Positions 3,001 through 58,301 of a DNA stretch of 64,000 nt are shown here, piece by piece. The number at the start of each line of letters is the position of its first letter. Positions within the stretch are counted from its first letter, which is position 1. Source of the DNA: a virus (lineage: Duplodnaviria > Caudoviricetes); IMG/VR virus record IMGVR_UViG_3300025018_000001. The stretch is one strand, 5' to 3'. The notes below the pieces were generated by a model that worked only from the letters and a program-made list of their open reading frames with translations, searched no databases and was not told the origin of the DNA. Position numbers and translations under genes: made by a program.

Positions 3001-6000
3001 CAGCTGTACCTGACTTCTTGATATCCAATTCTTTTATTCTACTAGCACTCTTAGCAAATTCTGGTGACTTAATTAGTAAACGTTCCTGTGAAGAAAGGTC
3101 TGCTTTATTATATTTACCTAAATCTATATTAGCTAGCGAGGCATCTTTACCTTTAAGTAACCCAGAAGTCTCCACAGCTAAACCAGTTCTAGTTTTTTCA
3201 ACAGCTATATTTTCTTTAACTGCTCTTGTATTGGCCTCCATTGTTTTAGTTAGGTCAGCGAATACAGCTCTATATTGTAAAACTATTTGATTATTTTTAA
3301 GTATATCCTGTAGTTTCCTTATAGAGTCGTATAACCCAGTGGACATCTCAACACTACCAGCGTCTAAGCCGTCTAGATGCATTTTTTCAAGCTGTTCTAA
3401 ACTAGTTTTATATTCATGAAGAGGTTTATTATAATATTTTTCAAAGTCGTCTGACCAACCTTTCTGGAAAGGCGACTCACCAAAACCTTTAGTAGGGTCA
3501 AAGCCTTTATCACCTTGAATGATGGTAGAAGTATTTATATCACTAAAGAAACGCTCACCTAAATTAAAGTCTGTTTTAAAACTTTTCTTAGCAATACCTA
3601 TTAAACCTGCACTAGCACCAGTAACAAAAGTACCTAAGGCTTCGATACGTTCAGACATATCTTGTTCAATAGCTTTGGTGGGTAGTATAGATTCAACTAA
3701 ATCTTGCATGTTACTATCAAATTTACGTTCAGTAACTTTCAGAGTTTTAGTATTAAAGTAAGTAGCTACCCACTCAAAAATACCATCTGATGTTTCTTTA
3801 AGTTTTACAATGGCTTGCTGACCTGCTATATTATATCTATCCGCTGCATCATTAGTAAAAGTAACTAGGTCACCACTTAGTAATTTACCTTCACGTTTAG
3901 CTAACCCCGCAGTCTCTGTATTTGCTACACTTAGTGCCTTAGTAGCACCAAGATTATTTGTATTTGGGAATAAACGCTTCATAACTTCAGCGCCTAATAC
4001 ATCTTCTTTAGTAACATTCCCTTTAATACCTTTTACATTAAACTGAGGTTCTACATCAATCATTAATTGGTACCCTGCCTGTAGCTCATCAGCTCCCATT
4101 ATTCTAGCTATTTCATCTTGACCTAAACCCTCAGTAGGTATGTTGGACAAAGCTCTTTTAAACTCAGAATAAGTGTTATTAAAAGAGTCCTTTACTTTAG
4201 ATAGCTTATCCTGAAGGTTTTTAATATCTCCGTCATATACAGTTGACATAGGTGCGGCATTCTTCTTAGACACTAAGTTATTTAGTTTGCCTGTAAGTAT
4301 TTCTAAACTTTTAGCAGGGGCTATACTAATTTGATTACTAATAAGGTCACCGATTACTGGGATCTCTTTAGTTAAGTCTTTTAATTCACTTTTCCACTTT
4401 TCGGAACCGTCTGTTTTAGTAAGTGCTTCAATATGTTTGGCTGCCACACTAGAGTCTTTGGCGGCAAGATCTCGTATTTTAGACCTTTCAAAAGTACCTA
4501 TAAGTGTTTGGTAGTTATCTGCTGTTCTTAATATAACATTACCTAACTTGTCATAACCAGCGATCATGTTGTAATTTTCTCTAGCAATCTTGTCACTTAA
4601 TTTTAAAGCATCAGACTGTATTGAGGATAATGCATTTAAAGGATTTACATAAGTACCTAAATATTTCTGCTTATCAGCAACCTCAGGGTTTTGACTTCTA
4701 GACACGTCTTTTAATTTTTTCTGTAGATCTCCAGCAGATTTTTGTGTGTCACGTATACTTATTAAGTCTGTTTCATCTTTTGATATTGCCCCAAACATAG
4801 AGTCGGCAAAATCTTGAGAAGACCGTGTTGTATTCATAAACTCTGTTCCCAGAGCTTTTATAGCCGGTGTTAGTAGGCCTAAAGTTAATAACATGGGTGC
4901 TATAGCTTTAACCACACCCGCGTTGTCCTTTGCCCACTCTTTAAAGACATCTCCGCCAGCACCTAACTTCTTGGAAAATTCATCTATGAATATACCACCG
5001 GCAGCTGCACCTAATCCGGCAACTTCCGTAGCTACACCTAGGAAAGATGATGCAACTTTACCTACACCTTTTAAACCACCTGCGGCAAAGGCACCCTTTA
5101 CACCTTCTGATTTAGCGAATTTAGCAGCGGTACCACCGGCTAGGTCTTTGTATGTAACATCTTCACCTTTACCATATTTACCACCGCCAAGTGAAGATAC
5201 AACAGCACTTAACCAGGAGCCACCTCTAACCATAGATTGACCAACACCCTGGCCAGCTCTACCGGTCCCTTGAAGTCCCCCACCTACAGTATCGTTAAAA
5301 GATTTACCCGCAGATACAAGTAAATAAGCTGCCTTACCAATAGCAGATTCAAAGTCTCTAATACTACGCCCTTGTTCTCTACCTGGCTGACCTCCAATTA
5401 ATGTTTTTAATCCTCTAGAAGACGTATCTGTAGAACCTGCACCAATAACTTCAAAGGAAGCTGTTTTAAGTTCGTCTTTTATAGACCCTATTAAATTACC
5501 AACTATTGGTGTGCCACCAGAGAAGAAATTAGATATAGTGTCTAATATTTTAGCACCTTTAGATAAGTATGTAAATAAACCTAAAGCGGCTACGCCAGCA
5601 ATTTTGAAAGATTTAGGTATAGCTGACACAGTTTCTGCCATCGCTTTCATACTTTGTAAACCAAATTTAGCTGCAGGAAAAGCTATCTTACCAAAAGCTA
5701 ATTGTAATTCTAAAAATGCAGCTTTAGTCTGTTCAACTTGTTTCGAATATGTTTGCATTAATTCAGCATTTCTTCTAGAAGCAGAGCCTTGTGAATTCAT
5801 ACTATGCTGAACACCATCTAAAGCTTCTTGCCAATTCTCCATAAGAACAAGTAGAGAGTTATATTGTCTGGTACCACCTATAGCCTGTGCTACTGTCAAT
5901 TTCTGTGCACTATTTAGTTCTTTCCACTTCTCCGCTAAGTCGCCTAGTATTTCAAAACCCCCGCGTAATTCACCTTCACCAGTTACCGTTGCTACGTTTA

Positions 6001-9000
6001 ATTTAGCTAGCTCATTAGGGCCTTTCTCAGAAGACAGTCTTCTCATTATAAATCTTAATGACGTACCAACCTCTTTACCGGACTGTCGGGTAACAGACCC
6101 TATTGAGGCCACAATACCGTTCAATTGGTCAAAAGTTATACCAGCAGTACTAGCAGCAGCAGCCGACTTTTTAATAGCTTCAGCCATATCACCAGCAGTA
6201 ATAGCATGTTTAGATTCAACCTCAGACCATGAATCCAAGAACCGCATAGACCTATCACCCTCTGTCCTAAATATCTTCATGGCAGCTGTTAAAGCTTCAG
6301 TAGCATCTTTAGCTTTTAGAGTTGTAACGTTACTTGCTAGCATAGATGTTTGTGTTCTATCTATTACTTCAGCTTGTGATAGACCCTGCTGTGCGTAAAC
6401 AACCATAGCGTCTAAAACACCTGTTGTAGGTGTACCATATTGCTTGGCCATTCCAACAGCTGAGCTTTGTAGACCCTCAAAATCAGTACCTTTGGAGGGC
6501 ATAACCATTTTTAACTTAGCCATTCCAACTTCAACTTCAGCTACGGTTTCTACGGCTTCTTTGAGCTTATCTACACCACCATAAATTAGAGAAGATGCTG
6601 CACCCCATTTTATGGCACGTTCAATGGCACCTAAGAAACCACGATTAGCTCCCGCTAAAGAGGCAGCCATATCTTCCTGCTTGGCAGTGAATATACCTAC
6701 TGTTTTTCCTGCACTATCAACAGATTCATTAAGTTTATGGAATAGTACGCGTTGGTTTTCTATAGGTTTTCCTGAGTCATCAAATACTTTTGCATCGTAG
6801 GAGTATCTTTCACCAATTTTAGCACCACCCTCAGCACTACCTTTACCATAATATTCACGTAGTTTAGAAATGTTTCTCTTATGTAAATTCTGCTGCATTT
6901 CTGGGTCAGCCCATTTAGGTACTTGTACTACACCTGTCTCACCCCAAACACCTGGGCCTCCAGACTGTGTAGCTCTATCCATACTAACTTTAGATAGCTT
7001 ATTTTCAGCATCTTTAAGTAGTTTTATTGTATTTTCTAAGTTTTTACTTTCAACAGATAAAGGACTATCAGAAACATTAAACTGTTTAAATAACTCTAAG
7101 GCACTGCGTAAACGAGTTATTCTCTCTGAGGCTGCCTCAAAATTCCAAGCCTCGGCTATTTCTGGTCCAAGTCTTTCCAAGAGTTTACCGTTAGCCATTA
7201 ATGCTAATGTTTCATCATTCATCTCTGTAAGATCTTTGATAGCATTTCTTGCCTTATCTGTGGGGGCGGTAATGTTGCCTCTATTTTTACCAGAAAGATC
7301 ACCAGTTATGTCATCAAAAACCTTTTTAAGTAATTCACTATCCGGGTCGGTAGTATCACCTAAATCTCTATTAGACTTCCGTTGTATGTCAACAGGTGAT
7401 TGGTAAACCCCAGCAGCTTTAGCTATATCAGGGAAAGCCCAAACTTTATTAGCAGTGTATATGTCGCTTCTCTTACCAGTATCTGCAATTATTTTCTGCT
7501 GTACGGCGTTGACGGCTGATTCAAAGTTATTGTATGCTTTCCCTTCTTCATTACCACCCATACCCATGACGCTCGTATACATATTCTCAGCGTCATCTGC
7601 CTTTTTAAGTAGGTATTCAATCTCAGCATCTTTATATAAACGCCATGCTGTAGCAATCTCCTCACCAGACATTCCTTGGTTTGGATCTTGTCTATTTAAG
7701 ATTCCTGCATTTTTAGTTAAGTCTAAGAAATCTGAAGTATGTATACCGCCCTGCTTTTTGGCGTTATTAATATAATCCTGTGCTTCCTTAGTTAATTTAT
7801 TTGCTTCATTATCAAAATCCATACCTCTAGCTTTATATAGAGATTTAGATGCATCTCGTAATAAGCGTAGATTAGCTAATTCAGCTACAGGCCCATTACC
7901 CTCATAGGGTTGCATACTCTGCGCTCTACCTGCGGCAGATTTACGTTGTTCCTCAGTTGTTTTGAACTTATCTATTTTTTGGTTTATACCACCAATTCCA
8001 GAATCTTCATCTTTGAATACTCCGCCAGAAATACCTGAAGCACTACTATTTATATTAGATGACGATACTAACTGACCAAGTAATTTAACAGAGAAAACTA
8101 AACTATCATTCAAACCTGCTATGAATACAGGTATGGCTCCACCCCCAGTTGCTGGTAAAGTAGGTCCTCCTGTACCTGGGCCACCACTTGATGGTATATT
8201 TGGTGGTACATCTCCGCCGCTAAATCCTGGATGAGGAGGCTCTTCTCCTCTACTACCTGCATAACTAGAGGTTTCATACTGTGGTGGTATAGTAGTAATA
8301 ATAGAAGTAGTAGACTCTGCACTCTTAGGTGCACCCATAGAAGCTCTTTTTACTTCTTCTTTATCTTCATTTAAACTTAAAGATATGTTTCTACCTGCTT
8401 CAGGTAGTATATCTTTCCTAGTACCGGAAACTTCAGATATTCTATCTAGTCTAGCGATAAGTATTTCCAAATCACCCAGACGTGCATTTGCTTTAGATAT
8501 TTTATTTATATCTTTTTCCTTAGCGTCATCTGGTATATCAGCTAACTTAGCTACATATTCAGGAGATGTAAGTATACTAGCTTGTTTTCTATCACTCATA
8601 GGTGCTAGACCTAAAGTATTCTCCATAGAGCTAATTAACTCTTTTATTGGTCCCATAGAGACTTTACCAGAAGTAAAGTCTTCTCTATTACCACCTATAA
8701 GTTGTTTTGCTTGTATGTAGTCTGCTTGGTTAACACCTTCCTTACCTAAGGATTCAAAAGTTTTTACTAGCTCAGCATATGCACCGCTACTTCTAAATGT
8801 CTTAGCTACGGAGTCCATACCTGTTTTAAAGTCTACATCAAACTTATCATCAACCGAATAACCACCAGTTCTAAACTTGTACATTGGGTCATTAACATCA
8901 GTAACCATTCTTGAGACGTCAATACCTCTAGGTGGTGCACCATCTTTTGATTCATAACGTTTACTTAAAATTTTAAATGCTACTTCAGCACTTATAGGTT

Positions 9001-12000
9001 TTTCGCTATTTGCTTGTATACCTTTAACAGCTAATTGTTCTATTGTGCCTTGTAAATCACGTAGAAATCCCTCAAAACCTAGTTTATTAACTAAGGCGTC
9101 TGTAAGGTCAGACCTACTCATATTAGTAGTATCACCTAAAGGTATACCTGTAGATGCTGCTTGGTCTTTTAATTCCTGAGTAGAAAATTTACCAAAAGTA
9201 TTACGTAGAGAGTCTTCATTTATGGACTTAAACTTCTTTAAATCATCATAGCTTTTATTTTTTTCTAATTTACCAAGTAAACCTTCAAGACCTGCCTTAC
9301 CTGTTGTAACACCTTTAACCAATTCACCAGCTATAGGTCTTTCTCCAGCATGTTTTACATCCATACCTTTCTGAATAGCAAATCTAAAAAACTCATTAAG
9401 TTGTGTATTACGTTCTCTATTGACAAAATTACTATCTATCTTGCCTGACTTGGTTTTACTAGATAAGCCTATTTCTCCAGTACCATCACCAAAGCCTCTT
9501 TTACTTTCATAAGCCCGCATAAGCCTTGTCATGCTTTCAGTATCTGTACCAGTGTTTATCTTAAATAACTGTGCATTTACAGCGGTATCTAACTTCATAT
9601 TAGACAATTCTTCTTTTAAGTAGCCTTCAATAAATGATTTGATTTTTATATCTTTTATCTTATTAAGCTCAGCTACAGCTGCTTCAGAGGCTTCACCTAA
9701 ATCATCTATACCTTTTATAGACTTGTCATCAAACTTAGCCCCTACTTTCTCGTAGATAGCCCGCATAACTCTACTAACAGATTCGCCGCCTGAAGTCATA
9801 TTTAGGTCTTGCTCTTTACTTGCAAGTATACCTACTTTTTCTTTAGGTGATAAGTAAGATAAATCTTCAGTAGTAAAAGGTTTATCAAGGAACGAATACC
9901 CTTTAGAACTATCAAACTTTTTACTAAATGCCTGGGACATATAAGATAGTGGTAAGTCACCTTGTGATGGCTGTTTAGCATCATAAGAATAGTAGTCACC
10001 AAATTTACCAGCTGTCGAATCTATATCTTTAGTAAGCATCTGGAAATGTTTGTAGATGTCATTTCTAGCCTCAGATGTTTTGGCAGTATGAAGTTCAATC
10101 TGGTCACCATCATAATCCAATTTTTGGGCATGAGCTACATATTTAGGTAAAACAGCGGATATAGCGCTATTTAGTTTATCTATAGTACCTGTTAAAGCAT
10201 TAGCTTGTGTATCATCCCCAACAGTACGTGCAGCCTCTCTTTCTTTAGATAAGCTTTTAACTTTATCTTTTATAGAATTATAGACGTCTTCAAAAGCCCC
10301 CATATCCATTTCTGGTGTACCTGGAACCATTAAAGCGTCATCACCTATACCACCAGCAGTTTGTACAAGCTTAGCTTTGTAAGGCTTCAGAGAAGATGTA
10401 CCAGTGAATGGGAAACGCACACTCTCAACAAAGGGGCTTAACTCAGTATCTATATATTTCTTTATATCGTCAGCACGTTCCTTTGGTTGTATCTTACTGG
10501 CAGTTTTTTCCAAAGCACTTGAATATTCTAAAAGATCTTTCAATGTACCTTGAAAATTTTTATCTTCATCTTTATTTAATACAGTACCTTTATCTTTATC
10601 GTATCTCTTAGTGAAGTTAACCTTAAGTTTTTCAGCCAACTTACTGGATACACCCAGTTCATGTTGTTTAAGGACAGGCATACCAATATCTTTGTATTTA
10701 GATACATTTTGTGCGTGTTCTTCGGTAAGTTTCTCTATAGTAGATATTTCTTGTCCTAAGTCTAAACCTTCTATACCTTTTAGTGTTTGAGAAAAAGCAG
10801 TTAGTTCTTCTGTCTTATCCACAGTAGCGTTAGTAGCTTTAGCTAAAACAGATGGTATGTTTCTAGTGAAAAAAGTTCTGGCTACCGACCCTTTTTTACC
10901 TACAAGATTTTTACGTAAAGTATCTTGATAAGACTGTTTTGATCTATCAAGGTCTTCTTGACGTTTAGTTACCTGATTATTATACTTCTCCTCAGAGTTA
11001 GCACCTCTACCATAACTAAATATACTGTCTTTGTTGCCTAAAGCATTAGAGACACCTGTCATAACATCTAACCTAGTAGAAGTATCAGTAGCTTTAGCTA
11101 GAACACTTGTATCAGCAACGTTAGGATTACCTGTACCAATCAGCATATTCTTCATAGCTGCTAAAGCAGTAGGAGAATTAAAACCCTCTTTTGTACCTAA
11201 ATGCTTAACAAAGTCAGACTCACTACCTTTCTGATTGTCAAACTTTCCACTAAGATTATGTTTACTGTTATAGAAGTTTTGTACACCTGTACTTAAGGAA
11301 CCTTCTTCTTTAGATAATTTACCCTGGTCATCCAATTTAACAAGAAGCTGCATAAGTTCTTGTTTAACTTTATTAACTTTAGCAACCGCCTCCTCTGTGT
11401 TTGATTGCTCAAGTCCAGTGGATCTACCTCGGTCATCCTTTGCAAATAGTGAAGACATTGCATTTGCAGCAGTGCTACCAAAAGCGCCCGACATACCAGT
11501 AACGTCAGTATCTAATAACATGCTAGTGTCTTTATTATAGAAAGCCTGTAATGATCTAGACTTGTCAATAACATCTTGAAGTTTACTACCTGTCTTTTTT
11601 ATACCATAAGCGCCCGCTTGCATTGGGTCAGCATAAGATGTTCTAGATATAGACCTTGGAATATATAAGTCTTCACCAGGGGCATCTTTACTTGTGGTAG
11701 ATGGTATAGTTGTCTTGTAAGCTCCTGGTAATTTATCAGTATCAAATATAGTGCCAAGGAGTGATCCTGGGTCGCCTTCATTAAAAGTCTTAGTTGCGTC
11801 TTTATTAACAGATTTAAGATCTTTTATATCAATTGACTTGACTGCACCTAATACTTTATTTTTGTACTCCTCATTAGTATTTACTAAGTAAGTAAGTATA
11901 TTATCGTAGTGTTCGGCCTGTTTGTCAGTGAAATTTTCATTCAGACTTTTCATGAAGGCAGAGTCTTCACCAAACGTAGAAGTATACGCAGCATAAGCAG

Positions 12001-15000
12001 GTATATTTAACTTTATACCTTTACTTAGAGACTCTATGGCACCTTTAGACCATTCTTCTGTCTGTGTAGGTTCTTCTACTATAGATAAGAACTTTTCACC
12101 TACTAAACTCTTTCTTCTATTGTTTAGTTCATCAACAACCTCTACGTAGTAGCTGGATTTTTTCTCCAACTCTATCATGGCTTTTATTGCATCTTGTGTA
12201 CTTTTATCTTGAAGTTTTTCTTTAGAAAACATACTAGTTATCTTGCTCTGTAATTCTTCATCAGTCTTACCTGAACCTGAGAAGCCTAGAGCCTTACTAT
12301 ATTTAGAGAAAGAACCACCAGACTTACCAGATATTAAGCTATTTTTCTGGTCATCAATAGTATTCTTAATTACAGTATTACCCTTACTACTTGCAAGGTT
12401 ATTAGCAACCATTTCTAAAGGCTCAGTTTGTAAGCCACGTTTAGCTGCACCATAAGAACTAATACGTACATCAATAGCTTTTGCTGTAGTTTTCTCTCCT
12501 ACATGCATACCTTTTATTTGGTTTATACCTTCAATATTTTGAGCTAAATTTATATCCAACTCTGCGAAAGCTTTTTTAGCTTTATCAAAAGTGGATAAGT
12601 TCTTAATAGCCTCATTCTCTGTAACTAATCCTTTATTTACATCTGTAAATATATCTAATATAAACTTATTACCTGAGTCTTTAAGTTCTTGGGCTAGTAC
12701 GTCAACATCCATACCTATACCAGCACTTATCTTCTCCTTGGTTTTGGTATCCTGCTGTCCTAAAATATCGGAAGATAATTCACCCATAGATTTAGGCATA
12801 AAGGCTACACCTAATCCAGCTTTCTTCTGCTCATCCCCAGCAAGTACCTTTACATTAGAATCTTTATGTGCTGAAATTATGTCGCCCAAAGTTGATGGAC
12901 TGGTTGGAGTTACAGAAACACCTTTAGAGCCATATCTAGTAGTTAATTTTCTACCAAAATGATTTAAAAATAGTTCTGCTAACTTTGCAGACTGCACCTC
13001 AACCGAAGCACCTCTATTTGTAGTGACTTCATTCTTAACGTTAGAGATAAATGCTTTGTCTGGGCGACGTTTATATTTCTCGTCTATTCCCATAACTGAC
13101 ATTATATTACCGGTCACTTCTTCAATATCAGAGTCTTTTATAGGCCCTTCATTTATTGTAGAGGCTTTACCTGCACTAGCTTTAGGACGCACCAGTTTTC
13201 TAACAGCTGTAGTAGCAGCATCTGCTAACTTTCCAGATACTAAGATTTGATCTTCAAACGTACCAGCTGTATGTCGCAACTCCGCAAGAACGTTATAACC
13301 TATACCTGATTTACCAAACCTTCCTGCCTGAATTACTTTGTCTTCAGACTCGGATCGTAACTTAGGGAACTCTGAGGAAATGCCCTGCTCTTTACCAAAT
13401 AAGCCCGTGTCAAAGCCCTTGGCTGAAGATATACCTGAAATATTTCTTCCTGTTTGTTGATATTCTAAAGAGAACGGTGCTATCTCTCTTAGATTACCTG
13501 TATACATGGGTACTGTTCTACCAGGTCTATTCATAGCATCTGGAGTTGTTTCTAAATTACTTGCAGGGGACTCTGGTAAACCTAAGCTAGTTAGTTGTTT
13601 ATTAGTACCTACATTTAATAAAGCCTGTCTATGTGCAACCTCTGGTGTTACTCCTTGTAAAGAAGGTAAGCTACTGGCTTCATAGAAAAGTTCATTAGCC
13701 CTTCTATTAAAATTAGTAATAAAGGCCTTCTTAGCTTCATTATTTGATTTAAAGCCACGTTCTTCAATGTCTACAGATTCAGACAAGCCATACTTTCCTT
13801 CAGGTGTTAGTAGCTTAGATGCAGCACCTGAATCCATTGAGTGTGCCTTGGAGTAATTAAACATAGCTGAAACAGTATCTCCCTGGTGCATACCTCTTCT
13901 TGGAGCGTTCTTCTCAACTATAGGCATCATACCTTCTAAAGAGGATATGGTTTTTTCAAAGTCACCAATAGCCCCAGTGGATGTTGCTATGTTACCTACT
14001 ATCTTCTCTAACTTAGGCCCTGTAGCTCTTTCTATGGCATCATATACATTTGAAAAATTTAATGAGTCTAAAGATTTTATAACTCTGGTAGCGGATAACC
14101 CCATGGCATCCATATTGGCCATAAATTCATCTACAGAGTTAGAAGACTTTAAAGCAGTATCTACTTGCTTAGACAAAGTTACTAACTCATCCTTCGCTTT
14201 AAGTTCCCCGGAAGTACCTCGTGTTATACGTTGTCTTTCAATACTAATTGGTACTATAGCTTTCTTATAAAAAGATGCAGCGTCTTCTTTATTAGCGGGT
14301 ACACCACCCTTAGAAGCTACCCCTTTTAGCAATAATCTAGAAGCCTCCTCATAGGTACTAGTTGTGTCTGGTACGATGTCACGAGGATCAGTGTTCATGT
14401 TAGCACTTCTAGCAGCTCTAGCTAATTGTAAAATCTCCGGTGTTATACCCTCTTTAAAAGACTCTTGCTTATCTTGTGGTACTTTTTGTAGTAAAGCAGT
14501 AGCATTTTTTATATAACCTTCAAAAGCTCTTTCATGACCTGATTTATATTCAGCTAATTGAAGCGTAGACCTTTGACTTCCATGTTGTGTCTCTAAAACA
14601 GTACTGCCTGTGTTGGTTAATTTAGCTGCTGGAATTGCTATAGTACGTTTAACATCTGCAAGAGACTTCTGAATGTCAGAAAATCCTACTGTTTTTGCAA
14701 AGATATCTTTTAGGTCACTATTAGATGCCTTACTAAATGCAGCTGCTATATCCTCTACTGGTGTACTCCCTATATTAGGTATACTTAACTGGTCTAAAAC
14801 GTCCTTACCTATAGCAGTACGTACCTCAGGATTAAGTCCTTGAACTCCTCCAGACTTTACATTGGATTTTAACCAATCAGCTATCTCCAACTTTAAAGAG
14901 CTTGGCTTATGGCCTTTTTCTCGTAGTAAACTAGTAGCTAATTTGTCTGAGTATGTTTTTAATAGTTCTTTAGGTGAACCATCTTGTTTGCCCGTCAAAC

Positions 15001-16954
15001 TACGAAGTTTTTTCATATCAACAACATCCATGGCCCACTCACGGCCACGTAAATTAAATGCTCTGTTATGTGTACTTCCTGAACCTTCGTTTTCAACAAC
15101 TTTCCAGTCAGTATACTGCTTTTTGCCTGGCGTAGGTTTTAAACCTTCTGATACTTGGTTGTATATAGTCTGTTGTAACTTATCCAAAGACATAGATAAT
15201 TTAGACATATTCTCGTATACTTTTAATTCGTACTCATTCTTTACTTTTTCTGGTGCAGCGTAGGCAACATTAGGCTTGATGAACTTCTCACTATATTTTA
15301 CACTTACTGCTTTTTCAGCATTAGATATAGAATACTTATTAGTCGAAGCTTCTTTTTTAAACTTATCAATGGCATCTGCTAGTTTACCTTTATCTAAAGA
15401 AGCCGTATTTTTATCTATCGCTTGTATAAGTTTAGTATTATCTTGCCCAGCACTAACTTTACCAAGATGGGAAATTAGAGTATTGACTTCTTTAACAAGA
15501 TCCTCTATACCTGATGAGTCTTGTAAAGTAGTTGTTCTACGGTCGCTTTTTACAAATTTACTTATGTCTTCATTTGATAAGGATATTTTTAAATCTTGTA
15601 CCTTACCAAGTTTGGCAAAGTCATGTTCAATAGTAAGTACGTCACTTTTTTTAGTACGGTCGTTAGTTATAAAAGAGGATTCTTTTCTATCTAGAATAGC
15701 ATTCATAGCTACACGTGTTGACTCCAACTCAGCAACTACTTTCTCCAGCTTATCTCTACGAGCTTCTACACCTACACGACTTCTTTCTGGTAACTTAGAA
15801 GAAGCATTTCTATCAGGAAGATTCTGTAGCTCTTTTGTTTTATTATATTGCTCCCTACCTAAAGAACCTTTAACATAATCAAAACCACGTACAAGTTTTG
15901 TTAGTTTATCCTGTAAGTCCTGTACTGCTTTAGTGTCTATGTCTAAAGCTATACCACTATTATTTATATCATTAATTTTATTTTGAAGTTGTTTTAAGCG
16001 GTCATAGATAGCAGGTATAGCGTCTTTTTCTAAATCTATACTAAGTGACATAACATCCTGGTCAATTAGTTTGTCCAGTTTATCTTTGGCTTTAGCTGTA
16101 TCTGCCTCAACAGTTATAGTAGTTGTATTATTTTTAGCTAGCTCCTCGATGTCCTTAGAAGCTTGTGCGGTGTCAGCTGTTACTTTTACTACAACACCGT
16201 CAGCAACTAGCTGTGATATTTTATTTATAGTAGTAGTAAACTGTTTGTTAGCTGCAGATAAAACAGAGACTGCACCAATAGATTGGTCGGAATCGATCCT
16301 TGAAATAGGTGCTCTTACAGACTTATAGCTTTCTTTTGCAGAAGTTGCCGTACTAAGTATAGCTTCTAGTAAATCTACCATCTTACTATTATCTGGAGAG
16401 GCCTTACCACGTTCAGCAGCAAACTCTTTGGATAGGTTAGGTATGGCAGTAAGTGCCTTAGCAATAATGGATAATTCTTGTGCTACCTTAGCTATATCAT
16501 TAGTACCTTGTGTAGGTATACTAGAGGATATACTCTTTACAGCGGAAGTAGTTGCGGTACGTTCATTAGAAACTTTGTTAGCTTTAAATAAACTTTGTAA
16601 ACTTTCAGTAAGGACAGATTTTACTGTAGTTGTTATCTCTTTTTGTAGATCTCTCGCACTGGATGAAGTGTCAGAGCTGGCAGCTTTATTGACTACCTCA
16701 ACTATAGCACCTTTTACATCTCTGGCTAACTGTTTCGAAAATGCCTCATTACTTGAGGAATCAGGAAGAGAGTTAGATAATGCTTTTACTATAGCATTAC
16801 TAATAGTAACCTCCATAGACTTCATGGAGCGATTAAGGGAACTTTCTATAGCAGTACTAATACCATTTATGTCGAAAGTATTGCTTTCAGAACCAGTACC
16901 TTTACTATCCGATGTTGCTTGGATTTTGATTATATGCTCGCTTGTTCCAGCCAA
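1..16954 (-). CDS. Giant tape measure protein fused to a two-barrel RNA polymerase (>5,650 aa, 3' end beyond window)
   Basis: TTG start at 16954 after GGAGG RBS (MAGTSEHIIKIQATSDSK...). The frame was open at every segment I translated (1-180, 8.16 kb, 10.1 kb, 10.4 kb, 12.4-13.3 kb, 16.9 kb). Nearly all plus-strand track ORFs in 942-16970 start at positions 0 mod 3, the antisense-shadow register of one frame. Lies directly downstream of tail tube and chaperone-position genes. Confidence 0.9.
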   Translation of the reverse strand, partial: MAGTSEHIIKIQATSDSKGTGSESNTFDINGISTAIESSLNRSMKSMEVTISNAIVKALSNSLPDSSSNEAFSKQLARDVKGAIVEVVNKAASSDTSSSARDLQKEITTTVKSVLTESLQSLFKANKVSNERTATTSAVKSISSSIPTQGTNDIAKVAQELSIIAKALTAIPNLSKEFAAERGKASPDNSKMVDLLEAILSTATSAKESYKSVRAPISRIDSDQSIGAVSVLSAANKQFTTTINKISQLVADGVVVKVTADTAQASKDIEELAKNNTTTITVEADTAKAKDKLDKLIDQDVMSLSIDLEKDAIPAIYDRLKQLQNKINDINNSGIALDIDTKAVQDLQDKLTKLVRGFDYVKGSLGREQYNKTKELQNLPDRNASSKLPERSRVGVEARRDKLEKVVAELESTRVAMNAILDRKESSFITNDRTKKSDVLTIEHDFAKLGKVQDLKISLSNEDISKFVKSDRRTTTLQDSSGIEDLVKEVNTLISHLGKVSAGQDNTKLIQAIDKNTASLDKGKLADAIDKFKKEASTNKYSISNAEKAVSVKYSEKFIKPNVAYAAPEKVKNEYELKVYENMSKLSMSLDKLQQTIYNQVSEGLKPTPGKKQYTDWKVVENEGSGSTHNRAFNLRGREWAMDVVDMKKLRSLTGKQDGSPKELLKTYSDKLATSLLREKGHKPSSLKLEIADWLKSNVKSGGVQGLNPEVRTAIGKDVLDQLSIPNIGSTPVEDIAAAFSKASNSDLKDIFAKTVGFSDIQKSLADVKRTIAIPAAKLTNTGSTVLETQHGSQRSTLQLAEYKSGHERAFEGYIKNATALLQKVPQDKQESFKEGITPEILQLARAARSANMNTDPRDIVPDTTSTYEEASRLLLKGVASKGGVPANKEDAASFYKKAIVPISIERQRITRGTSGELKAKDELVTLSKQVDTALKSSNSVDEFMANMDAMGLSATRVIKSLDSLNFSNVYDAIERATGPKLEKIVGNIATSTGAIGDFEKTISSLEGMMPIVEKNAPRRGMHQGDTVSAMFNYSKAHSMDSGAASKLLTPEGKYGLSESVDIEERGFKSNNEAKKAFITNFNRRANELFYEASSLPSLQGVTPEVAHRQALLNVGTNKQLTSLGLPESPASNLETTPDAMNRPGRTVPMYTGNLREIAPFSLEYQQTGRNISGISSAKGFDTGLFGKEQGISSEFPKLRSESEDKVIQAGRFGKSGIGYNVLAELRHTAGTFEDQILVSGKLADAATTAVRKLVRPKASAGKASTINEGPIKDSDIEEVTGNIMSVMGIDEKYKRRPDKAFISNVKNEVTTNRGASVEVQSAKLAELFLNHFGRKLTTRYGSKGVSVTPTSPSTLGDIISAHKDSNVKVLAGDEQKKAGLGVAFMPKSMGELSSDILGQQDTKTKEKISAGIGMDVDVLAQELKDSGNKFILDIFTDVNKGLVTENEAIKNLSTFDKAKKAFAELDINLAQNIEGINQIKGMHVGEKTTAKAIDVRISSYGAAKRGLQTEPLEMVANNLASSKGNTVIKNTIDDQKNSLISGKSGGSFSKYSKALGFSGSGKTDEELQSKITSMFSKEKLQDKSTQDAIKAMIELEKKSSYYVEVVDELNNRRKSLVGEKFLSIVEEPTQTEEWSKGAIESLSKGIKLNIPAYAAYTSTFGEDSAFMKSLNENFTDKQAEHYDNILTYLVNTNEEYKNKVLGAVKSIDIKDLKSVNKDATKTFNEGDPGSLLGTIFDTDKLPGAYKTTIPSTTSKDAPGEDLYIPRSISRTSYADPMQAGAYGIKKTGSKLQDVIDKSRSLQAFYNKDTSMLLDTDVTGMSGAFGSTAANAMSSLFAKDDRGRSTGLEQSNTEEAVAKVNKVKQELMQLLVKLDDQGKLSKEEGSLSTGVQNFYNSKHNLSGKFDNQKGSESDFVKHLGTKEGFNSPTALAAMKNMLIGTGNPNVADTSVLAKATDTSTRLDVMTGVSNALGNKDSIFSYGRGANSEEKYNNQVTKRQEDLDRSKQSYQDTLRKNLVGKKGSVARTFFTRNIPSVLAKATNATVDKTEELTAFSQTLKGIEGLDLGQEISTIEKLTEEHAQNVSKYKDIGMPVLKQHELGVSSKLAEKLKVNFTKRYDKDKGTVLNKDEDKNFQGTLKDLLEYSSALEKTASKIQPKERADDIKKYIDTELSPFVESVRFPFTGTSSLKPYKAKLVQTAGGIGDDALMVPGTPEMDMGAFEDVYNSIKDKVKSLSKEREAARTVGDDTQANALTGTIDKLNSAISAVLPKYVAHAQKLDYDGDQIELHTAKTSEARNDIYKHFQMLTKDIDSTAGKFGDYYSYDAKQPSQGDLPLSYMSQAFSKKFDSSKGYSFLDKPFTTEDLSYLSPKEKVGILASKEQDLNMTSGGESVSRVMRAIYEKVGAKFDDKSIKGIDDLGEASEAAVAELNKIKDIKIKSFIEGYLKEELSNMKLDTAVNAQLFKINTGTDTESMTRLMRAYESKRGFGDGTGEIGLSSKTKSGKIDSNFVNRERNTQLNEFFRFAIQKGMDVKHAGERPIAGELVKGVTTGKAGLEGLLGKLEKNKSYDDLKKFKSINEDSLRNTFGKFSTQELKDQAASTGIPLGDTTNMSRSDLTDALVNKLGFEGFLRDLQGTIEQLAVKGIQANSEKPISAEVAFKILSKRYESKDGAPPRGIDVSRMVTDVNDPMYKFRTGGYSVDDKFDVDFKTGMDSVAKTFRSSGAYAELVKTFESLGKEGVNQADYIQAKQLIGGNREDFTSGKVSMGPIKELISSMENTLGLAPMSDRKQASILTSPEYVAKLADIPDDAKEKDINKISKANARLGDLEILIARLDRISEVSGTRKDILPEAGRNISLSLNEDKEEVKRASMGAPKSAESTTSIITTIPPQYETSSYAGSRGEEPPHPGFSGGDVPPNIPSSGGPGTGGPTLPATGGGAIPVFIAGLNDSLVFSVKLLGQLVSSSNINSSASGISGGVFKDEDSGIGGINQKIDKFKTTEEQRKSAAGRAQSMQPYEGNGPVAELANLRLLRDASKSLYKARGMDFDNEANKLTKEAQDYINNAKKQGGIHTSDFLDLTKNAGILNRQDPNQGMSGEEIATAWRLYKDAEIEYLLKKADDAENMYTSVMGMGGNEEGKAYNNFESAVNAVQQKIIADTGKRSDIYTANKVWAFPDIAKAAGVYQSPVDIQRKSNRDLGDTTDPDSELLKKVFDDITGDLSGKNRGNITAPTDKARNAIKDLTEMNDETLALMANGKLLERLGPEIAEAWNFEAASERITRLRSALELFKQFNVSDSPLSVESKNLENTIKLLKDAENKLSKVSMDRATQSGGPGVWGETGVVQVPKWADPEMQQNLHKRNISKLREYYGKGSAEGGAKIGERYSYDAKVFDDSGKPIENQRVLFHKLNESVDSAGKTVGIFTAKQEDMAASLAGANRGFLGAIERAIKWGAASSLIYGGVDKLKEAVETVAEVEVGMAKLKMVMPSKGTDFEGLQSSAVGMAKQYGTPTTGVLDAMVVYAQQGLSQAEVIDRTQTSMLASNVTTLKAKDATEALTAAMKIFRTEGDRSMRFLDSWSEVESKHAITAGDMAEAIKKSAAAASTAGITFDQLNGIVASIGSVTRQSGKEVGTSLRFIMRRLSSEKGPNELAKLNVATVTGEGELRGGFEILGDLAEKWKELNSAQKLTVAQAIGGTRQYNSLLVLMENWQEALDGVQHSMNSQGSASRRNAELMQTYSKQVEQTKAAFLELQLAFGKIAFPAAKFGLQSMKAMAETVSAIPKSFKIAGVAALGLFTYLSKGAKILDTISNFFSGGTPIVGNLIGSIKDELKTASFEVIGAGSTDTSSRGLKTLIGGQPGREQGRSIRDFESAIGKAAYLLVSAGKSFNDTVGGGLQGTGRAGQGVGQSMVRGGSWLSAVVSSLGGGKYGKGEDVTYKDLAGGTAAKFAKSEGVKGAFAAGGLKGVGKVASSFLGVATEVAGLGAAAGGIFIDEFSKKLGAGGDVFKEWAKDNAGVVKAIAPMLLTLGLLTPAIKALGTEFMNTTRSSQDFADSMFGAISKDETDLISIRDTQKSAGDLQKKLKDVSRSQNPEVADKQKYLGTYVNPLNALSSIQSDALKLSDKIARENYNMIAGYDKLGNVILRTADNYQTLIGTFERSKIRDLAAKDSSVAAKHIEALTKTDGSEKWKSELKDLTKEIPVIGDLISNQISIAPAKSLEILTGKLNNLVSKKNAAPMSTVYDGDIKNLQDKLSKVKDSFNNTYSEFKRALSNIPTEGLGQDEIARIMGADELQAGYQLMIDVEPQFNVKGIKGNVTKEDVLGAEVMKRLFPNTNNLGATKALSVANTETAGLAKREGKLLSGDLVTFTNDAADRYNIAGQQAIVKLKETSDGIFEWVATYFNTKTLKVTERKFDSNMQDLVESILPTKAIEQDMSERIEALGTFVTGASAGLIGIAKKSFKTDFNLGERFFSDINTSTIIQGDKGFDPTKGFGESPFQKGWSDDFEKYYNKPLHEYKTSLEQLEKMHLDGLDAGSVEMSTGLYDSIRKLQDILKNNQIVLQYRAVFADLTKTMEANTRAVKENIAVEKTRTGLAVETSGLLKGKDASLANIDLGKYNKADLSSQERLLIKSPEFAKSASRIKELDIKKSGTAEQLYSVERSKVALESIKNLSSGFGSSIGAKDFSKYTEMVAKTGDLGLAELKIDTSNTAENTAMTVDKLDEILANLSDRPGSEAMQSSFMDALDFLPISPNLTKNERLNEALDRVASIRNDALSSGDTEKATKANIALDDLTKQLVDRMGIAGAANKADSGLFGSGAFKGEELIQRAFGGLDFKTLASEMKANMKDETSWFGLVSKKGTPTFDKTVSNVQGIQDENIAKSKESSIFNSKNIAGATAGFGIYQAFNSNFSNKKVEAYDKQIADLKKREDEVGFIDYAPQMASLTSSRDEEAKKARMYGTMRYAAGGASGGMMLARNMGMSEDNIKRLGAGGAALGVYGAAKMNQGMTGDDLPQMVKEFGKEVAIFAAAMKDDGIFSTLKKGAATSRFKDASEGFMKQFAEETLDLKVTPNKTSSDRDAKYSAASDSFTKTKDDVKFDAEWKAKEFKRKVENPNADLRSNTKDSVNQSAQDLKDKFADLKEYIKTSGQDAVRSATEKMARGEEVNLKEEMSKIYEGTKSKTGDVYGDIKEKTGSTVDTLSKTAEYASTKTLGAIDALVEALSKNTEAVNGNAEGNAHGGFIQKFATGGTVKQLTPGFGDKQPALLTAGEEVLTAKQGRKLKPILDALRSGTANFSNGITSAISGTTSKYSAKLASKIGLKKIPGVGTVAAAGFAAERAATGDYLGAGLEVASGLASNIPVVGTAASFMIDGALMGKDLLTTKAPTLDDIRDKKLALQDRFSKLSNSRYGTLAAGAAGILGAYSMFGGDDDAAYGMGGKVLEYGKPMLSGIADIPAELGRMVLGNKAGKAEASALGTVGLSALILEGQRRKNTEEGSYANGGFISTGVKGLLNLAGIGLGTGATATIAGVSGLAKLLKAKKLTKGAQGTSSFVKKAATDTSSAYNDFKTNSPGLYSALATATVGTAGGALLYANSEDEDNIYDKYDRTLSGHADGGFTMSDGSVDKIRRAQEFARANGPGFSFKNSPRDLVTTS
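5600..6620 (-). other. TP901-family tape-measure core domain within the giant ORF
   Basis: Translation: WGAASSLIYGGVDKLKEAVETVAEVEVGMAKLKMVM..AKQYG..VLDAMVVYAQQG..LASNVTTL..DATEALTAAM..LDSWSEVESKHA..GDMAEAIKKSAAAASTAGITFDQLNGIVASIGSVTRQSGKEVGTSLRFI..QAIGGTRQYNSLLVLMEN. Typical PhageMin_Tail pattern. Confidence 0.85.
9900..13700 (-). other. RNA polymerase catalytic region (beta-like then beta'-like double-psi beta-barrel) within the giant ORF; boundaries approximate
   Basis: In-frame motifs: GYNVLAELRHTAGTFEDQILVSGKLA (13300-13223), GRKLTTRYGSKGVSV (12955-12911), AIDVRISSYGAAKRGLQTE (12478-12422), VRFPFTGTSSLKP (10420-10382), AQKLDYDGDQIELHTA (DYDGD 10117-10103). Confidence 0.88.
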
Positions 16955-24002: not shown

Positions 24003-24033
24003 TTAAGTTCCTTAATATAACATTATTAAAATA

Positions 24034-24070
24034 TTGGTACCAACCACATTATTAATATGGTTGGTACTAA
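24034..24070. terminator. Hairpin/terminator
   Basis: TTGGTACCAACCA-N11-TGGTTGGTACTAA. Confidence 0.6.
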
Positions 24071-56254: not shown

Positions 56255-56566
56255 ATGAACAACTTATTAAAATTGTACAGAGAGCTGAAACCTGAGAATA
56301 ATGAAGAAGCCAAACTCGCAGTTGTACTTGCCGCTGCTGAGGTTTCATTTCCCCTTGGTTGTAAAGTGAAAGTAATGGGAACAGGTTATATTGCTGAGGT
56401 TGTGAAGTACAACAAAAACCTCGGTGGATTTTATCCTGGTGTACGTTATCCTGTTCTTGTAAAGATTATACGGTCAAAGGATAAGAAGTTCAGGAAAGCA
56501 GTTGGAATGATATTCGAGTATACACCTGACCAGCTCAAAAAGATTAAGGTGAAGGCTAATGTCTAG
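56255..56566 (+). CDS. Early hypothetical protein
   Basis: 103 aa; preceded by GCCCTC-TTCG-GAGGGC hairpin. Confidence 0.7.
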   Translation: MNNLLKLYRELKPENNEEAKLAVVLAAAEVSFPLGCKVKVMGTGYIAEVVKYNKNLGGFYPGVRYPVLVKIIRSKDKKFRKAVGMIFEYTPDQLKKIKVKANV

Positions 56567-56753
56567 AATCATTCTAATAACCGGTCATTATCCTATTATT
56601 GTTAATGGAGAAGACACAGGTAAAACGGAATTCGTTGTATCTCACGGTATTAATGAAGATACTGGAGATGCTATTATACTACCTAATGATCCACCTCATA
56701 CATTCGAAGGTTCTTACTATAGTCCTGAAATGAATGAGTGGATTCTACCATAA
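56559..56753 (+). CDS. Early small protein
   Basis: 64 aa, coupled to upstream ORF. Confidence 0.65.
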   Translation: MSRIILITGHYPIIVNGEDTGKTEFVVSHGINEDTGDAIILPNDPPHTFEGSYYSPEMNEWILP

Positions 56754-56764
56754 GGAGCTTTATC

Positions 56765-56992
56765 ATGTCATCAGAAGAATTAACATGCTCAGTTTGTGAA
56801 CGAGCTGGTTGTGAATGTATTTGTGATTTGGTTGTTAATAAAGAAGATTATGATGCCGTTGTACATCTGGCAAAGAAACTTCTTAAAGGCGCCAACATCT
56901 GTATGGAAGAACAATCTTTAATCCAGCCTTTCTTCTCTATTGTAAAGGACAATGCTGCTATCATCGGTAAGTTGAATCTATTCGATGAATAA
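56765..56992 (+). CDS. Early Cys-rich small protein
   Basis: CSVC..CECIC, AAGGAG RBS. Confidence 0.7.
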   Translation: MSSEELTCSVCERAGCECICDLVVNKEDYDAVVHLAKKLLKGANICMEEQSLIQPFFSIVKDNAAIIGKLNLFDE

Positions 56993-56994
56993 CA

Positions 56995-57040
56995 AGACTC
57001 CCTGCCAGGCACTAGCCTGGTGGGGTTTCTTCATCTTTTT
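56995..57040 (+). terminator. Intrinsic terminator
   Basis: AGACTCCCTGCCAGGC-ACTA-GCCTGGTGGGGTTT followed by a T-rich run. Confidence 0.65.
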
Positions 57041-57123
57041 TAAAAAACCCTGGAGCTTCGTGAAGAACTCTTGTGGTAGTTCGAACGTGGGGACCCTGCA
57101 GCTTCGGGCCGAGTACCGTGCTA

Positions 57124-57210
57124 GTACCATCGCTGTTTGGGGATGGGGATTAGTGGTACGGGTTTTTTGAGTATAGTCTATGTTTATCCACCAATTTAAA
57201 GGAGTTTGCT
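57124..57210 (+). promoter_or_regulatory. Early regulatory cassette 11 (degenerate)
   Basis: GTACCA...GGGGATGGGGAT-TAGTGGTAC (57161) GGG T6 GAG...AAAGGAG. Confidence 0.65.
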
Positions 57211-57450
57211 ATGAAACTAGTTCAGCTTGTTGTATTCATTTCTGTGGTTCTTTACGGCCAGTTCGTTTTCGCGGCTATATCTTACGAGAAAATCAGCTGT
57301 CTTGTGGGCGATTCAGTTATGTTCTTGACCGTTCCTATGGACAGTAACTGGGACAATTTGCAAATGGAGGATGCGGGCAAAGCAGTATGCGAGTCAATGG
57401 CGTTGGTAAGAATAATTCCGGGGCAGGTACTTGATGCAGAGGAGGAGTAA
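57211..57450 (+). CDS. Small exported protein
   Basis: Signal-peptide-like N-terminus, 79 aa. Confidence 0.65.
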   Translation: MKLVQLVVFISVVLYGQFVFAAISYEKISCLVGDSVMFLTVPMDSNWDNLQMEDAGKAVCESMALVRIIPGQVLDAEEE

Positions 57451-58299: not shown

Positions 58300-58301
58300 C
58301 A

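What the first reader, a model, noticed from the sequence alone, without database searches (positions are those of the whole stretch)
9900..13700. Single-chain beta-beta' polymerase with altered spacing: short flap region and lineage-specific insertions
Seen: both barrels lie in one chain, beta half first. FED to the first catalytic Lys is ~100 aa (about 250 in E. coli, where the sigma4-binding flap lies). KGV to the D..I...G..R motif is ~150 aa (about 25 in E. coli). RFP to DYDGD is 100 aa (35 in E. coli), filled by a helical insert. HTAKTSEARND after the motif echoes beta' HVPLTLEAQLE. Inference: a sigma-independent enzyme with its own promoter-recognition element, possibly a new branch of non-canonical two-barrel RNAPs.
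Basis: partly seen in the sequence, partly recalled or inferred. Interest (0 to 1): 0.75.

Follow-up and report, generated by a model that had tools for sequence, protein, structure and literature searches.

The report
RNA polymerase inside phage tape measure
The flagged stretch is a complete cell-type (beta plus beta-prime) RNA polymerase core built into the front third of a 7,498-residue tail tape measure protein of an uncultivated ~230-270 kb phage. This design has so far been proven only in Thermus phage P23-45, and here it sits in a separate, unannotated family.

Summary

The polymerase is residues ~560-2730 of one giant ORF (window 2-16954, minus; full length 7,498 aa). That ORF continues into a tape measure core (Pfam PF10145, E 3e-27) with two hydrophobic segments, and it follows the head and tail genes.

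Two AlphaFold models match the large subunits of multisubunit RNAPs, in the same order:
- Residues 1201-1631 match beta 701-1241 (Z 9-10).
- Residues 1694-2324 match beta-prime 23-503.
- Residues 2001-2730 match beta-prime/Rpb1 (Z 10-12.5). P23-45 gp96 scores Z 8.1.

A profile comparison links the module (E 7e-28) to ~1,000-1,100-aa single-chain beta-beta-prime polymerases. Those proteins hit Pfam Rpb2_6 and Rpb1_2, and they are encoded in three of the six relatives examined.

Most likely this is a virion polymerase delivered with the tape measure, plus a second non-virion polymerase, paralleling P23-45 in a family with no detectable sequence relationship to gp96. Sigma independence and the enzyme's promoter remain untested.

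The scan has flagged this design before on other DNA.

The parts
2..16954 (-). Giant ORF. These are the first 5,651 of 7,498 residues of the tape-measure/RNAP fusion protein (P0002); the C-terminus lies beyond the window start.
   Evidence: identical to P0002 residues 1-5651
15278..16954 (-). N-terminal residues 1-559. Poorly conserved and Ser/Lys/Ala-rich; function unknown.
   Evidence: only 8-12 of 38 homologues align over residues 1-500, 22 over 501-600
14009..15277 (-). Conserved block, residues 560-982. No recognisable family.
   Evidence: no hit
13259..14008 (-). Beta-like region upstream of the first barrel (residues 983-1232). It is homologous to residues 124-291 of the stand-alone single-chain polymerases.
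   Evidence: hhalign E 2.3e-11, prob 97%
12425..13258 (-). Beta-type barrel (DPBB-B), residues 1233-1510. It holds FED (E1234/D1235), the Lys pair K1336/K1344 in GRKLTTRYGSKGV, and IDVRISSYGAAKR with R1506.
12476..12915 (-). Lineage-specific helical insert of ~150 aa inside the beta-type barrel (residues 1347-1493). Invariant residues include G1382, P1387, G1428, N1429 and F1431.
   Evidence: gap in the paralogues
10418..12424 (-). Connector, residues 1511-2179. Equivalent to the beta C-terminal part plus the beta-prime N-terminal/clamp part. It includes the motifs VPG..AR.TY (cf. beta-prime PPDLRP) and GKKGSV...F.R.IP (cf. GKQGRFRQNLLGKRVD), and a variable stretch at 1800-2000.
   Evidence: (Z 8.5-9.8 to beta-prime 23-503)
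10055..10417 (-). Beta-prime-type barrel (DPBB-A), residues 2180-2300. It holds RFPFTG, a helical hairpin insert at 2218-2268, and the catalytic DYDGD at 2280-2284 (window 10103-10117).
9506..9649 (-). Candidate bridge helix, residues 2436-2483. A long kinked helix with invariant K2465 and G2469.
   Evidence: position inferred from alignment ranges
9305..9433 (-). Candidate trigger-loop helices, residues 2508-2550. The motif GMDVKHAG has invariant K2534 and near-invariant H2535.
   Evidence: inference by analogy with E. coli TMRTFHIGG
8765..9304 (-). C-terminal end of the conserved polymerase module, residues 2551-2730. Helical.
   Evidence: alignments to beta-prime/Rpb1 run to model residue 685-727
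5873..6448 (-). Tape measure core, Pfam PF10145 PhageMin_Tail (residues 3503-3694). It lies within a conserved block at residues 3050-5000.
   Evidence: E 3e-27; phrog_4211 E 1e-79
4859..5041 (-). Two hydrophobic, membrane-span-like segments (residues 3972-3990 and 4014-4032).
49192..58318 (+). Block of small genes carrying 11-13 copies of a conserved hairpin plus T-run element (invariant TAGTGGTAC). Candidate signals for the phage polymerases.
   Evidence: (11 hits against 0.07 expected)

Best explanation
The flagged region is the catalytic core of a single-chain beta-beta-prime (two-barrel) DNA-dependent RNA polymerase. The polymerase forms residues ~560-2730 of a 7,498-residue tail tape measure protein of an uncultivated jumbo phage.

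Shown:
- The fold and motif content are of the multisubunit-RNAP type.
- Every catalytic residue checked is invariant across the family.
- The same polypeptide carries a tape measure core and hydrophobic segments.
- The gene sits behind the terminase, capsid and tail genes.

Inferred, by analogy with P23-45 gp96:
- The protein is built into the tail as the length ruler.
- On infection it is expelled ahead of the DNA. Its tape-measure part spans the envelope. The N-terminal polymerase, which is the part nearest the DNA end, enters last.
- The polymerase then transcribes the first genes to enter, without host RNA polymerase.
- Those early genes probably include a second, ~1,100-aa stand-alone paralogue (a non-virion polymerase), found in three relatives, which takes over later transcription.
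- With most of the flap missing, classical sigma-region-4 docking is unlikely. Promoter recognition is therefore probably intrinsic or uses a phage factor.
- The conserved hairpin elements in the small-gene block are candidate signals.
For: Sequence:
- Motifs and spacings are as described.
- Invariant residues: E1234/D1235, K1336/K1344, R1506, R2180/P2182, D2280/D2282/D2284, K2465, K2534.
- 24 of 38 members hit Pfam RNA_pol_Rpb1_2 at the aspartate triad.
- hhalign to the ~1,000-aa family gives E 7e-28 over 403 columns and E 2.3e-11 upstream.
- That family hits Pfam Rpb2_6 and Rpb1_2, some members above the gathering cut-off. It also matches E. coli beta 1031-1123 at E 3e-6.

Structure:
- Model of residues 2001-2730: pLDDT 88.5, pTM 0.87.
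- In an unbiased search of 48,161 chains, the top 12 are all largest subunits of multisubunit RNAPs. Examples: Z 12.5 over 336 aa at rmsd 5.8; Z 11.5 over 169 aa at rmsd 2.9.
- Foldseek gives probabilities of mostly 0.75-0.96 to beta-prime chains.
- Model of residues 1201-2400 matches beta 701-1241 and then beta-prime 23-503, in the same order.

Tape measure context:
- PF10145 E 3e-27 and phrog_4211 E 1e-79.
- Hydrophobic segments.
- Terminase, protease and major head genes lie upstream.
- The fusion is kept in about 60 representative clusters of 6.8-8.0 thousand residues and in 46 IMG/VR contigs.

Second polymerase: found in G001, G002 (100% complete) and G003.

Precedent: P23-45 gp96 was shown to be in virions and to transcribe pre-early genes (PMC10770324).
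Against: - No experiment exists. No member of the family is cultivated, so presence in virions, activity and timing are all inferred.
- The beta-type barrel and the flap replacement are modelled at low confidence (pLDDT 40-60). Foldseek E-values to PDB never pass 0.001.
- A folded ~235-kDa enzyme with a clamp-like region is too bulky for a tail-tube lumen. It would have to travel unfolded or sit elsewhere.
- The second polymerase is not in this window. It was not found in three less complete relatives.
- The bridge-helix and trigger-loop assignments rest on alignment ranges and motif resemblance only.
Confidence: 0.68

Rival explanations
1. The module is an active polymerase, but it is cut from the tape measure part during assembly. 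It either stays in the infected cell or is packed as a free ejection protein, so the fusion is only a way of making the two together.
For: Residues 2700-3050 between the polymerase and tape measure blocks are poorly conserved and could be a processing linker. A ClpP-like head maturation protease is encoded nearby. Many large tape measure proteins are known to be processed (general knowledge).
Against: In P23-45 the polymerase domain was detected in virions as part of full-size gp96 (PMC10770324). No cleavage motif was identified here. The one-ORF arrangement is kept in about 60 divergent clusters.
Confidence: 0.15
2. The two-barrel enzyme has a role other than early mRNA synthesis. For example, it might prime replication or synthesise RNA on single-stranded templates, as QDE-1-type enzymes can.
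For: Two-barrel enzymes also include RNA-dependent polymerases and archaeal PolD (PMC10770324; PMC7824862). QDE-1 and gp96 appear among weaker structural matches (Z 7.8-8.1).
Against: The best structural and motif matches are to DNA-dependent multisubunit enzymes. The beta-prime motifs GK.G...R and PP.LRP-like are present. A paralogue pair mirrors the proven P23-45 transcription cascade.
Confidence: 0.09
3. The module is an inactive relic of a polymerase, kept for a structural or DNA-piloting role in the tail.
For: Sequence similarity to canonical enzymes is very low. There are large inserts inside both barrels.
Against: Every catalytic residue examined is invariant over 38-68 sequences down to 22% identity. 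A relic would not be expected to keep them.
Confidence: 0.05

Closest known systems
Thermus phage P23-45 gp96 (Oshimavirus): tape-measure-fused virion RNA polymerase (Chaban et al. 2024, PMC10770324; PDB 8H2M)
   Same: A two-barrel polymerase sits in the N-terminal part of a giant tape measure protein, beta-type barrel first. A second stand-alone paralogous polymerase is encoded in the same phage lineage. The gene sits behind the head and tail genes.
   Different: - Similarity to gp96 is confined to the aspartate-triad barrel region: the RNAP-module profile (A4) gives E 0.049 at prob 1%, and the stand-alone paralogue profile gives E 2.2e-5 over 82 columns.
- Structural match is Z 8.1, against 10-12.5 for beta-prime/Rpb1.
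- The module here is ~2,100 aa, against an 800-aa minimal enzyme in gp96.
- It starts ~560 residues into the protein.
- The connector is ~670 aa with a predicted clamp-like region, where gp96 is flat and clampless.
- The whole protein is 7,498 aa against 5,002.
- The host is unknown, the genome is ~35% G+C and about 230-270 kb.
Multisubunit RNA polymerases of jumbo phages (PhiKZ, AR9) and of cells (beta, beta-prime)
   Same: The order beta C-half then beta-prime N-half is kept. Motifs FED, G.K....G.KGV, R.P and D.DGD are present. Structural matches are Z 9-12.5. The weak tblastn hits of the paralogue family that fall on annotated genes are mostly on jumbo-phage beta and beta-prime genes.
   Different: - One chain instead of two to five.
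- Most of the flap is absent.
- Only ~450 aa follow the aspartate triad, against ~940 in E. coli.
- Helical inserts sit in both barrels.
- No canonical beta or beta-prime reaches E 0.001 in a profile search of 1.84 billion proteins.
YonO of Bacillus prophage SPbeta: single-chain two-barrel polymerase
   Same: Both barrels are in one chain, it is phage-encoded, and it has no flap domain (PMC7824862).
   Different: hhalign of the paralogue family against YonO finds nothing (E 0.38). tblastn of the vRNAP region (residues 1201-2400) and of one stand-alone paralogue found nothing in phage records at E <= 0.001; a second paralogue at E <= 10 gave only weak hits, none in SPbeta. YonO is not fused to a virion protein.
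crAss-like phage phi14:2 gp66 and phage N4 virion polymerases
   Same: A polymerase embedded in a very large virion protein and delivered with the DNA (PMC10770324).
   Different: gp66 belongs with QDE-1. N4's enzyme is T7-like, not two-barrel. Neither is part of a tape measure protein.

Membership tests
Two-barrel (DPBB) RNA polymerase superfamily | Beta-prime-type barrel with an R.P motif and a D.D.D metal-binding triad | tested here: met
   R2180/P2182 and D2280/D2282/D2284 are invariant in 68 sequences. Pfam PF00623 is hit by 24 of 38 members. DPBB folds and beta-prime chains are matched.
Two-barrel (DPBB) RNA polymerase superfamily | Beta-type barrel supplying two basic residues and the E-D pair | tested here: met
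   E1234/D1235 and K1336/K1344 are invariant. hhalign gives E 7e-28 to a family that hits Pfam PF00562. Z 9-10 to beta 701-1241. The model has low confidence in this part.
Two-barrel (DPBB) RNA polymerase superfamily | Bridge helix and trigger loop after the catalytic barrel | tested here: inconclusive
   Long helices at 2436-2483 and 2508-2550 carry invariant K2465, G2469 and K2534. Alignments to beta-prime/Rpb1 extend to model residue 685-727. No residue-level superposition was available.
Tape measure protein (Pfam PF10145, TP901 type) | PhageMin_Tail domain in a long protein encoded after the tail genes | tested here: met
   E 3e-27 at 96 bits against a cut-off of 33. phrog_4211 E 1e-79.
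P23-45 gp96-type tape-measure-fused polymerase (Oshimavirus) | Polymerase and tape measure in one polypeptide | tested here: met
   One ORF without a stop. The same is true in about 60 clusters.
P23-45 gp96-type tape-measure-fused polymerase (Oshimavirus) | Sequence homology to gp96 beyond the universal triad | tested here: not met
   hhalign E 0.049, prob 1%, around DFDGD only. tblastn against phage records, which include P23-45, finds nothing.
P23-45 gp96-type tape-measure-fused polymerase (Oshimavirus) | Clampless flat architecture with a short connector | tested here: not met
   The connector is ~670 aa. Residues 1694-2324 align with beta-prime 23-503 at Z 8.5-9.8 and pLDDT mostly 80-90. 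This is a prediction only.
P23-45 gp96-type tape-measure-fused polymerase (Oshimavirus) | Present in virions and transcribes pre-early genes | not testable with these tools
   No cultivated member. No match in 50,697 phage records.
YonO-like single-chain polymerases | Detectable sequence relationship to YonO | tested here: not met
   The paralogue-family profile against YonO gives E 0.38 in an irrelevant region. The giant-protein profile itself was not compared with YonO.
Jumbo-phage multisubunit polymerases (PhiKZ/AR9 type) | Beta and beta-prime split into several polypeptides | tested here: not met
   Single chain. Structural similarity is present (Z 9.1-10.2).

The most novel reading that the evidence does not exclude
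This is a second, independently evolved fusion of a virion RNA polymerase to a tail tape measure. It derives from a multisubunit-type beta-beta-prime enzyme that keeps a clamp. Together with a paralogous stand-alone polymerase it runs a host-independent transcription cascade in a whole clade of uncultivated ~230-270 kb phages, whose 7,000-8,000-residue rulers imply tails of about a micrometre. The conserved TAGTGGTAC hairpin elements are this system's own promoter or terminator signals.
Probability: 0.4. Interest if true: 0.8.

Novelty: new variant of a known kind. Interest (0 to 1): 0.7.

Why it matters
Only one tape-measure-fused RNA polymerase has been studied (P23-45, 2024). Its authors explained it by a unique flat, clampless shape that could pass through the tail.

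Here the same fusion recurs in a family with no detectable sequence relationship to gp96. It is far larger and has a predicted clamp. It is conserved in dozens of large uncultivated phages.

- That makes the fusion a recurring solution for starting infection without the host enzyme.
- It also challenges the "flat enzyme fits the tube" explanation.
- It gives a compact single-chain version of the cellular polymerase core for studying the minimal catalytic machinery.
- It flags what may be the longest phage tape measures on record.

Tried and rejected
- crAss-like origin: my first guess from the giant ORF. Dropped once the tape measure domain and gene order were seen.
- Direct family searches: Pfam and PHROGs on the polymerase region alone gave nothing significant. 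phmmer against PDB sequences gave nothing.
- hhalign of the family profiles against single E. coli beta, beta-prime and gp96 sequences gave only short motif matches.
- Foldseek of the 1,200-residue model against PDB gave no significant row. The 730-residue model reached only E 0.009. BFVD gave one row at E 7e-4 and no close viral relative.
- The ESM Atlas feature search on residues 560-1260 gave no usable hit, so the first ~980 residues remain unexplained.
- tblastn of the vRNAP region and of one stand-alone paralogue against 50,697 phage records found nothing at E <= 0.001. A second paralogue at E <= 10 gave only weak hits, three Vibrio-phage hypothetical proteins at E 3e-3 to 6e-3 and the rest at E 0.4 or above.
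- Host assignment failed. Only three short MAG contigs with inconsistent taxa carry the family, and no genome is held for the window.
- Tail type (contractile or not) could not be decided. The genes just upstream of the giant ORF have no family hits.
- Sigma-70-like promoters are not enriched in the small-gene block (17 found against 19 expected).


Full report
WHAT IS THERE

The coordinates 9900-13700 lie on the minus strand inside a single ORF, window 2..16954. It has 5,651 codons without a stop and runs off the window start. It is letter-for-letter the first 5,651 residues of a 7,498-residue database protein, P0002.

The window looks like a tailed phage. On the same strand, upstream of the giant ORF, lie a large terminase (30500-32206), a ClpP-like head maturation protease (36888-37460), a major head protein (24981-26048), PhoH and a dNMP kinase. 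No tRNA was found, and no whole genome is held for the window.

CHECK OF THE OBSERVATION

Every motif is present at the stated place:
- FED at residue 1233
- GRKLTTRYGSKGV at 1334
- IDVRISSYGAAKR at 1494
- RFPFTG at 2180
- DYDGD at 2280
- HTAKTSEARND at 2289

The spacings are 101, 151 and 100 residues. In E. coli rpoB/rpoC, fetched here, the corresponding spacings are 251, about 22 and 35.

The motifs are not chance. In 38 homologues of 28-81% identity, D[FY]DGD and G[ST]KGV stand at the corresponding positions in nearly all. In alignments of 38 to 68 sequences the following are invariant: E1234, D1235, K1336, K1344, R1506, R2180, P2182, D2280, D2282, D2284, K2465, G2469 and K2534.

IS IT A POLYMERASE?

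Direct family searches fail. Pfam and PHROGs find nothing significant in residues 1-2651, and phmmer finds nothing in PDB sequences. Three independent lines nevertheless agree.

(a) Weak direct Pfam signal. 24 of 38 members give weak hits, best E 5e-4, to Pfam RNA_pol_Rpb1_2, where shown at the aspartate triad.

(b) A transitive sequence link.
- A profile search of 1.84 billion proteins finds 140 clusters and no canonical beta or beta-prime. It does find a set of ~1,000-1,160-residue proteins.
- Most of the stand-alone proteins scanned carry both Pfam Rpb2_6 and Rpb1_2, some above the curated cut-offs: 39.9 bits against 23.4, and 32.7 against 25.3.
- They match E. coli beta 1031-1123 at E 3e-6.
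- Profile-profile comparison of the giant-protein module with this family gives probability 99.8%, E 7e-28 over 403 columns. It gives E 2.3e-11 for the region upstream of FED.

(c) Structure.
- The model of residues 2001-2730 is confident: pLDDT 88.5, pTM 0.87.
- In a Foldseek-independent search of 48,161 representative chains, its 12 best matches are all largest subunits of multisubunit RNAPs:
  - human Pol I: Z 12.5, 336 aligned, rmsd 5.8
  - plant Pol IV: Z 12.2
  - Pol II Rpb1: Z 11.6
  - Sulfolobus Rpo1N: Z 11.5, rmsd 2.9, 169 aligned
  - ASFV, vaccinia, Pol III
  - AR9: Z 10.2
  - M. tuberculosis beta-prime: Z 10.1, 317 aligned, model 1-720 on 374-1246
- Foldseek gives probabilities of mostly 0.75-0.96 to beta-prime chains, though E is only 0.009-0.05.
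- The less confident model of residues 1201-2400 (pLDDT 74.6, pTM 0.46) matches only RNAP large subunits in the re-alignment of Foldseek's candidates. The matches fall in the same order as in the cellular enzyme. Model 1-431 matches E. coli beta 701-1241 (Z 9-10, rmsd 3-4, ~180 aligned). Model 494-1124 matches beta-prime 23-503 or Rpb1 20-522 (Z 8.5-9.8, 240-285 aligned).
- The ~675 residues between the barrels equal the sum of the beta C-terminal part and the beta-prime N-terminal part in E. coli (237 + 425).
- Two beta-prime motifs of that region are recognisable: VPG..AR.TY, like PPDLRP, and GKKGSV...F.R.IP, like GKQGRFRQNLLGKRVD.

The short FED-to-Lys distance is shared with the stand-alone paralogues. 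It means that about 160 residues of the flap have no counterpart. What remains is poorly modelled.

The 150-residue insert after KGV is specific to the giant protein and appears as a gap in the paralogues. It is helical and carries invariant residues.

The insert between RFP and DYDGD is a confident helical hairpin at 2218-2268.

After the triad only ~450 conserved residues follow. Long helices at 2436-2483 and 2508-2550 carry invariant K2465/G2469 and the motif GMDVKHAG. I read these as the bridge helix and the trigger loop. That is an inference from position and resemblance, not a residue-level superposition.

Conservation along the protein shows a polymerase block at about residues 550-2700 and a second block at 3050-5000. 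The second block holds Pfam PhageMin_Tail (E 3e-27), the tape measure PHROGs (E 1e-79) and two hydrophobic segments. The polymerase is therefore part of the tape measure protein.

This arrangement has one published precedent. Thermus phage P23-45 gp96 (5,002 aa) has an N-terminal domain that is a virion RNAP. It was found in virions as part of the full-size protein. It transcribes pre-early genes, including that of a second, non-virion polymerase, gp64 (PMC10770324).

The present family is not that one:
- hhalign to gp96 matches only DFDGD (E 0.049).
- The structural match is Z 8.1, against 10-12.5 for beta-prime.
- gp96 is a flat, clampless 800-residue enzyme. This module is about 2,100 residues with a predicted clamp-like region.

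Library searches found no paper describing another tape-measure-fused family. No record among 50,697 deposited phage genomes holds a relative.

DISTRIBUTION AND THE SECOND POLYMERASE

The family has about 60 full-length representative clusters of 6.8-8.0 thousand residues. It occurs on 46 IMG/VR contigs of up to 268,764 bp.

Three relatives also encode a stand-alone ~1,085-1,180-residue single-chain paralogue:
- G001: 228 kb, 86% complete
- G002: 268,764 bp, 100% complete
- G003: 87% complete

It was not found in three less complete records or in this window.

The host is unknown. The only hits in species-representative genomes are three short MAG contigs of unrelated taxa.

POSSIBLE SIGNALS

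A plus-strand block of small genes at 49.2-58.3 kb has higher G+C than the rest of the window. It carries 11-13 copies of a long hairpin with an invariant TAGTGGTAC arm followed by a T-run. The search pattern gives 11 hits, all on one strand, against 0.07 expected.

Sigma-70-like promoters are not enriched there. The element recurs in G001 on the same strand as the stand-alone polymerase gene.

P23-45 likewise has a conserved vRNAP promoter and a 26-nt conserved terminator motif. Whether the element here is a promoter, a terminator or both is open.

MECHANISM (INFERRED)

The protein serves as the tail ruler and is expelled ahead of the DNA. The tape measure part spans the envelope. The N-terminal polymerase follows, next to the leading DNA end, and transcribes the first genes. 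The stand-alone paralogue then takes over.

The size and clamp of the module make passage in a folded state implausible. This is the main open problem.

Using ratios from my own knowledge of lambda and P23-45 (about 0.15-0.18 nm per residue), a 7,498-residue ruler would predict a tail of roughly one micrometre.

VERDICT

This is a new variant of a known kind.

Earlier notes of this scan describe the same design in other genomes. I did not use them as evidence.

Noticed in passing
window 49192-58318 (+): 11-13 copies of a 14-16-bp hairpin with an invariant TAGTGGTAC arm plus a T-run, one after each small gene. Several copies are followed by a second hairpin (GAGCTAGC-ATATC-GCTAGCTC) that shows compensatory changes. 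Candidate phage-polymerase promoter or terminator signals.
   Followed up: partly
window 48780-48940 and 62370-63680: AT-rich clusters of TAGTAGTA-type short repeats flank the small-gene block on both sides. Their role is unknown; an origin or a module boundary is possible.
   Followed up: no
window 50000-62000: G+C rises to 0.41-0.49 against 0.30-0.40 elsewhere, and the coding strand switches to plus at about 49 kb. PHROG hits (a DprA-like protein and unknown-function phage families) show it is still phage DNA.
   Followed up: partly
L006:5335-8592 (+) (IMG/VR relative G001, 23334-26591): A stand-alone 1,085-aa single-chain beta-beta-prime polymerase (Pfam Rpb2_6 and Rpb1_2), paralogous to the module in the tape measure protein. 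Also present in G002 and G003.
   Followed up: yes
L006:9439-11877 (+): Next to that polymerase gene lies a ResIII/DEAD helicase interrupted by a LAGLIDADG domain (intein or homing-endonuclease insertion). It is followed by a phiEco32-like COOH-NH2 ligase.
   Followed up: no
homologues P0040 and P0037: Some giant tape-measure/polymerase proteins carry further enzyme domains: helix-hairpin-helix and PolX-type domains plus a cpYpsA SLOG domain in P0040, and an RNase T-type exonuclease (PF00929) in P0037. This suggests more cargo enzymes fused to the same ruler.
   Followed up: no
cluster of P0002: In one NCBI-sourced 264-kb contig the same gene is called as two ORFs (5,619 and 1,872 aa). The break lies beyond this window in the poorly conserved part. 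It could be a sequencing error or a real frameshift.
   Followed up: no
window 61988-62321 (+): Four copies of a palindrome, TTGGTACATGTACCAA followed by CTTTT, lie inside or beside the ORF at 61559-62365.
   Followed up: no
window 37546-39777 (-): A 743-aa protein with galactose-binding-like (F5/8 type C, DUF5000) and carboxypeptidase-regulatory-like domains. It may be a virion surface or receptor-binding protein lying within the head-gene region.
   Followed up: no
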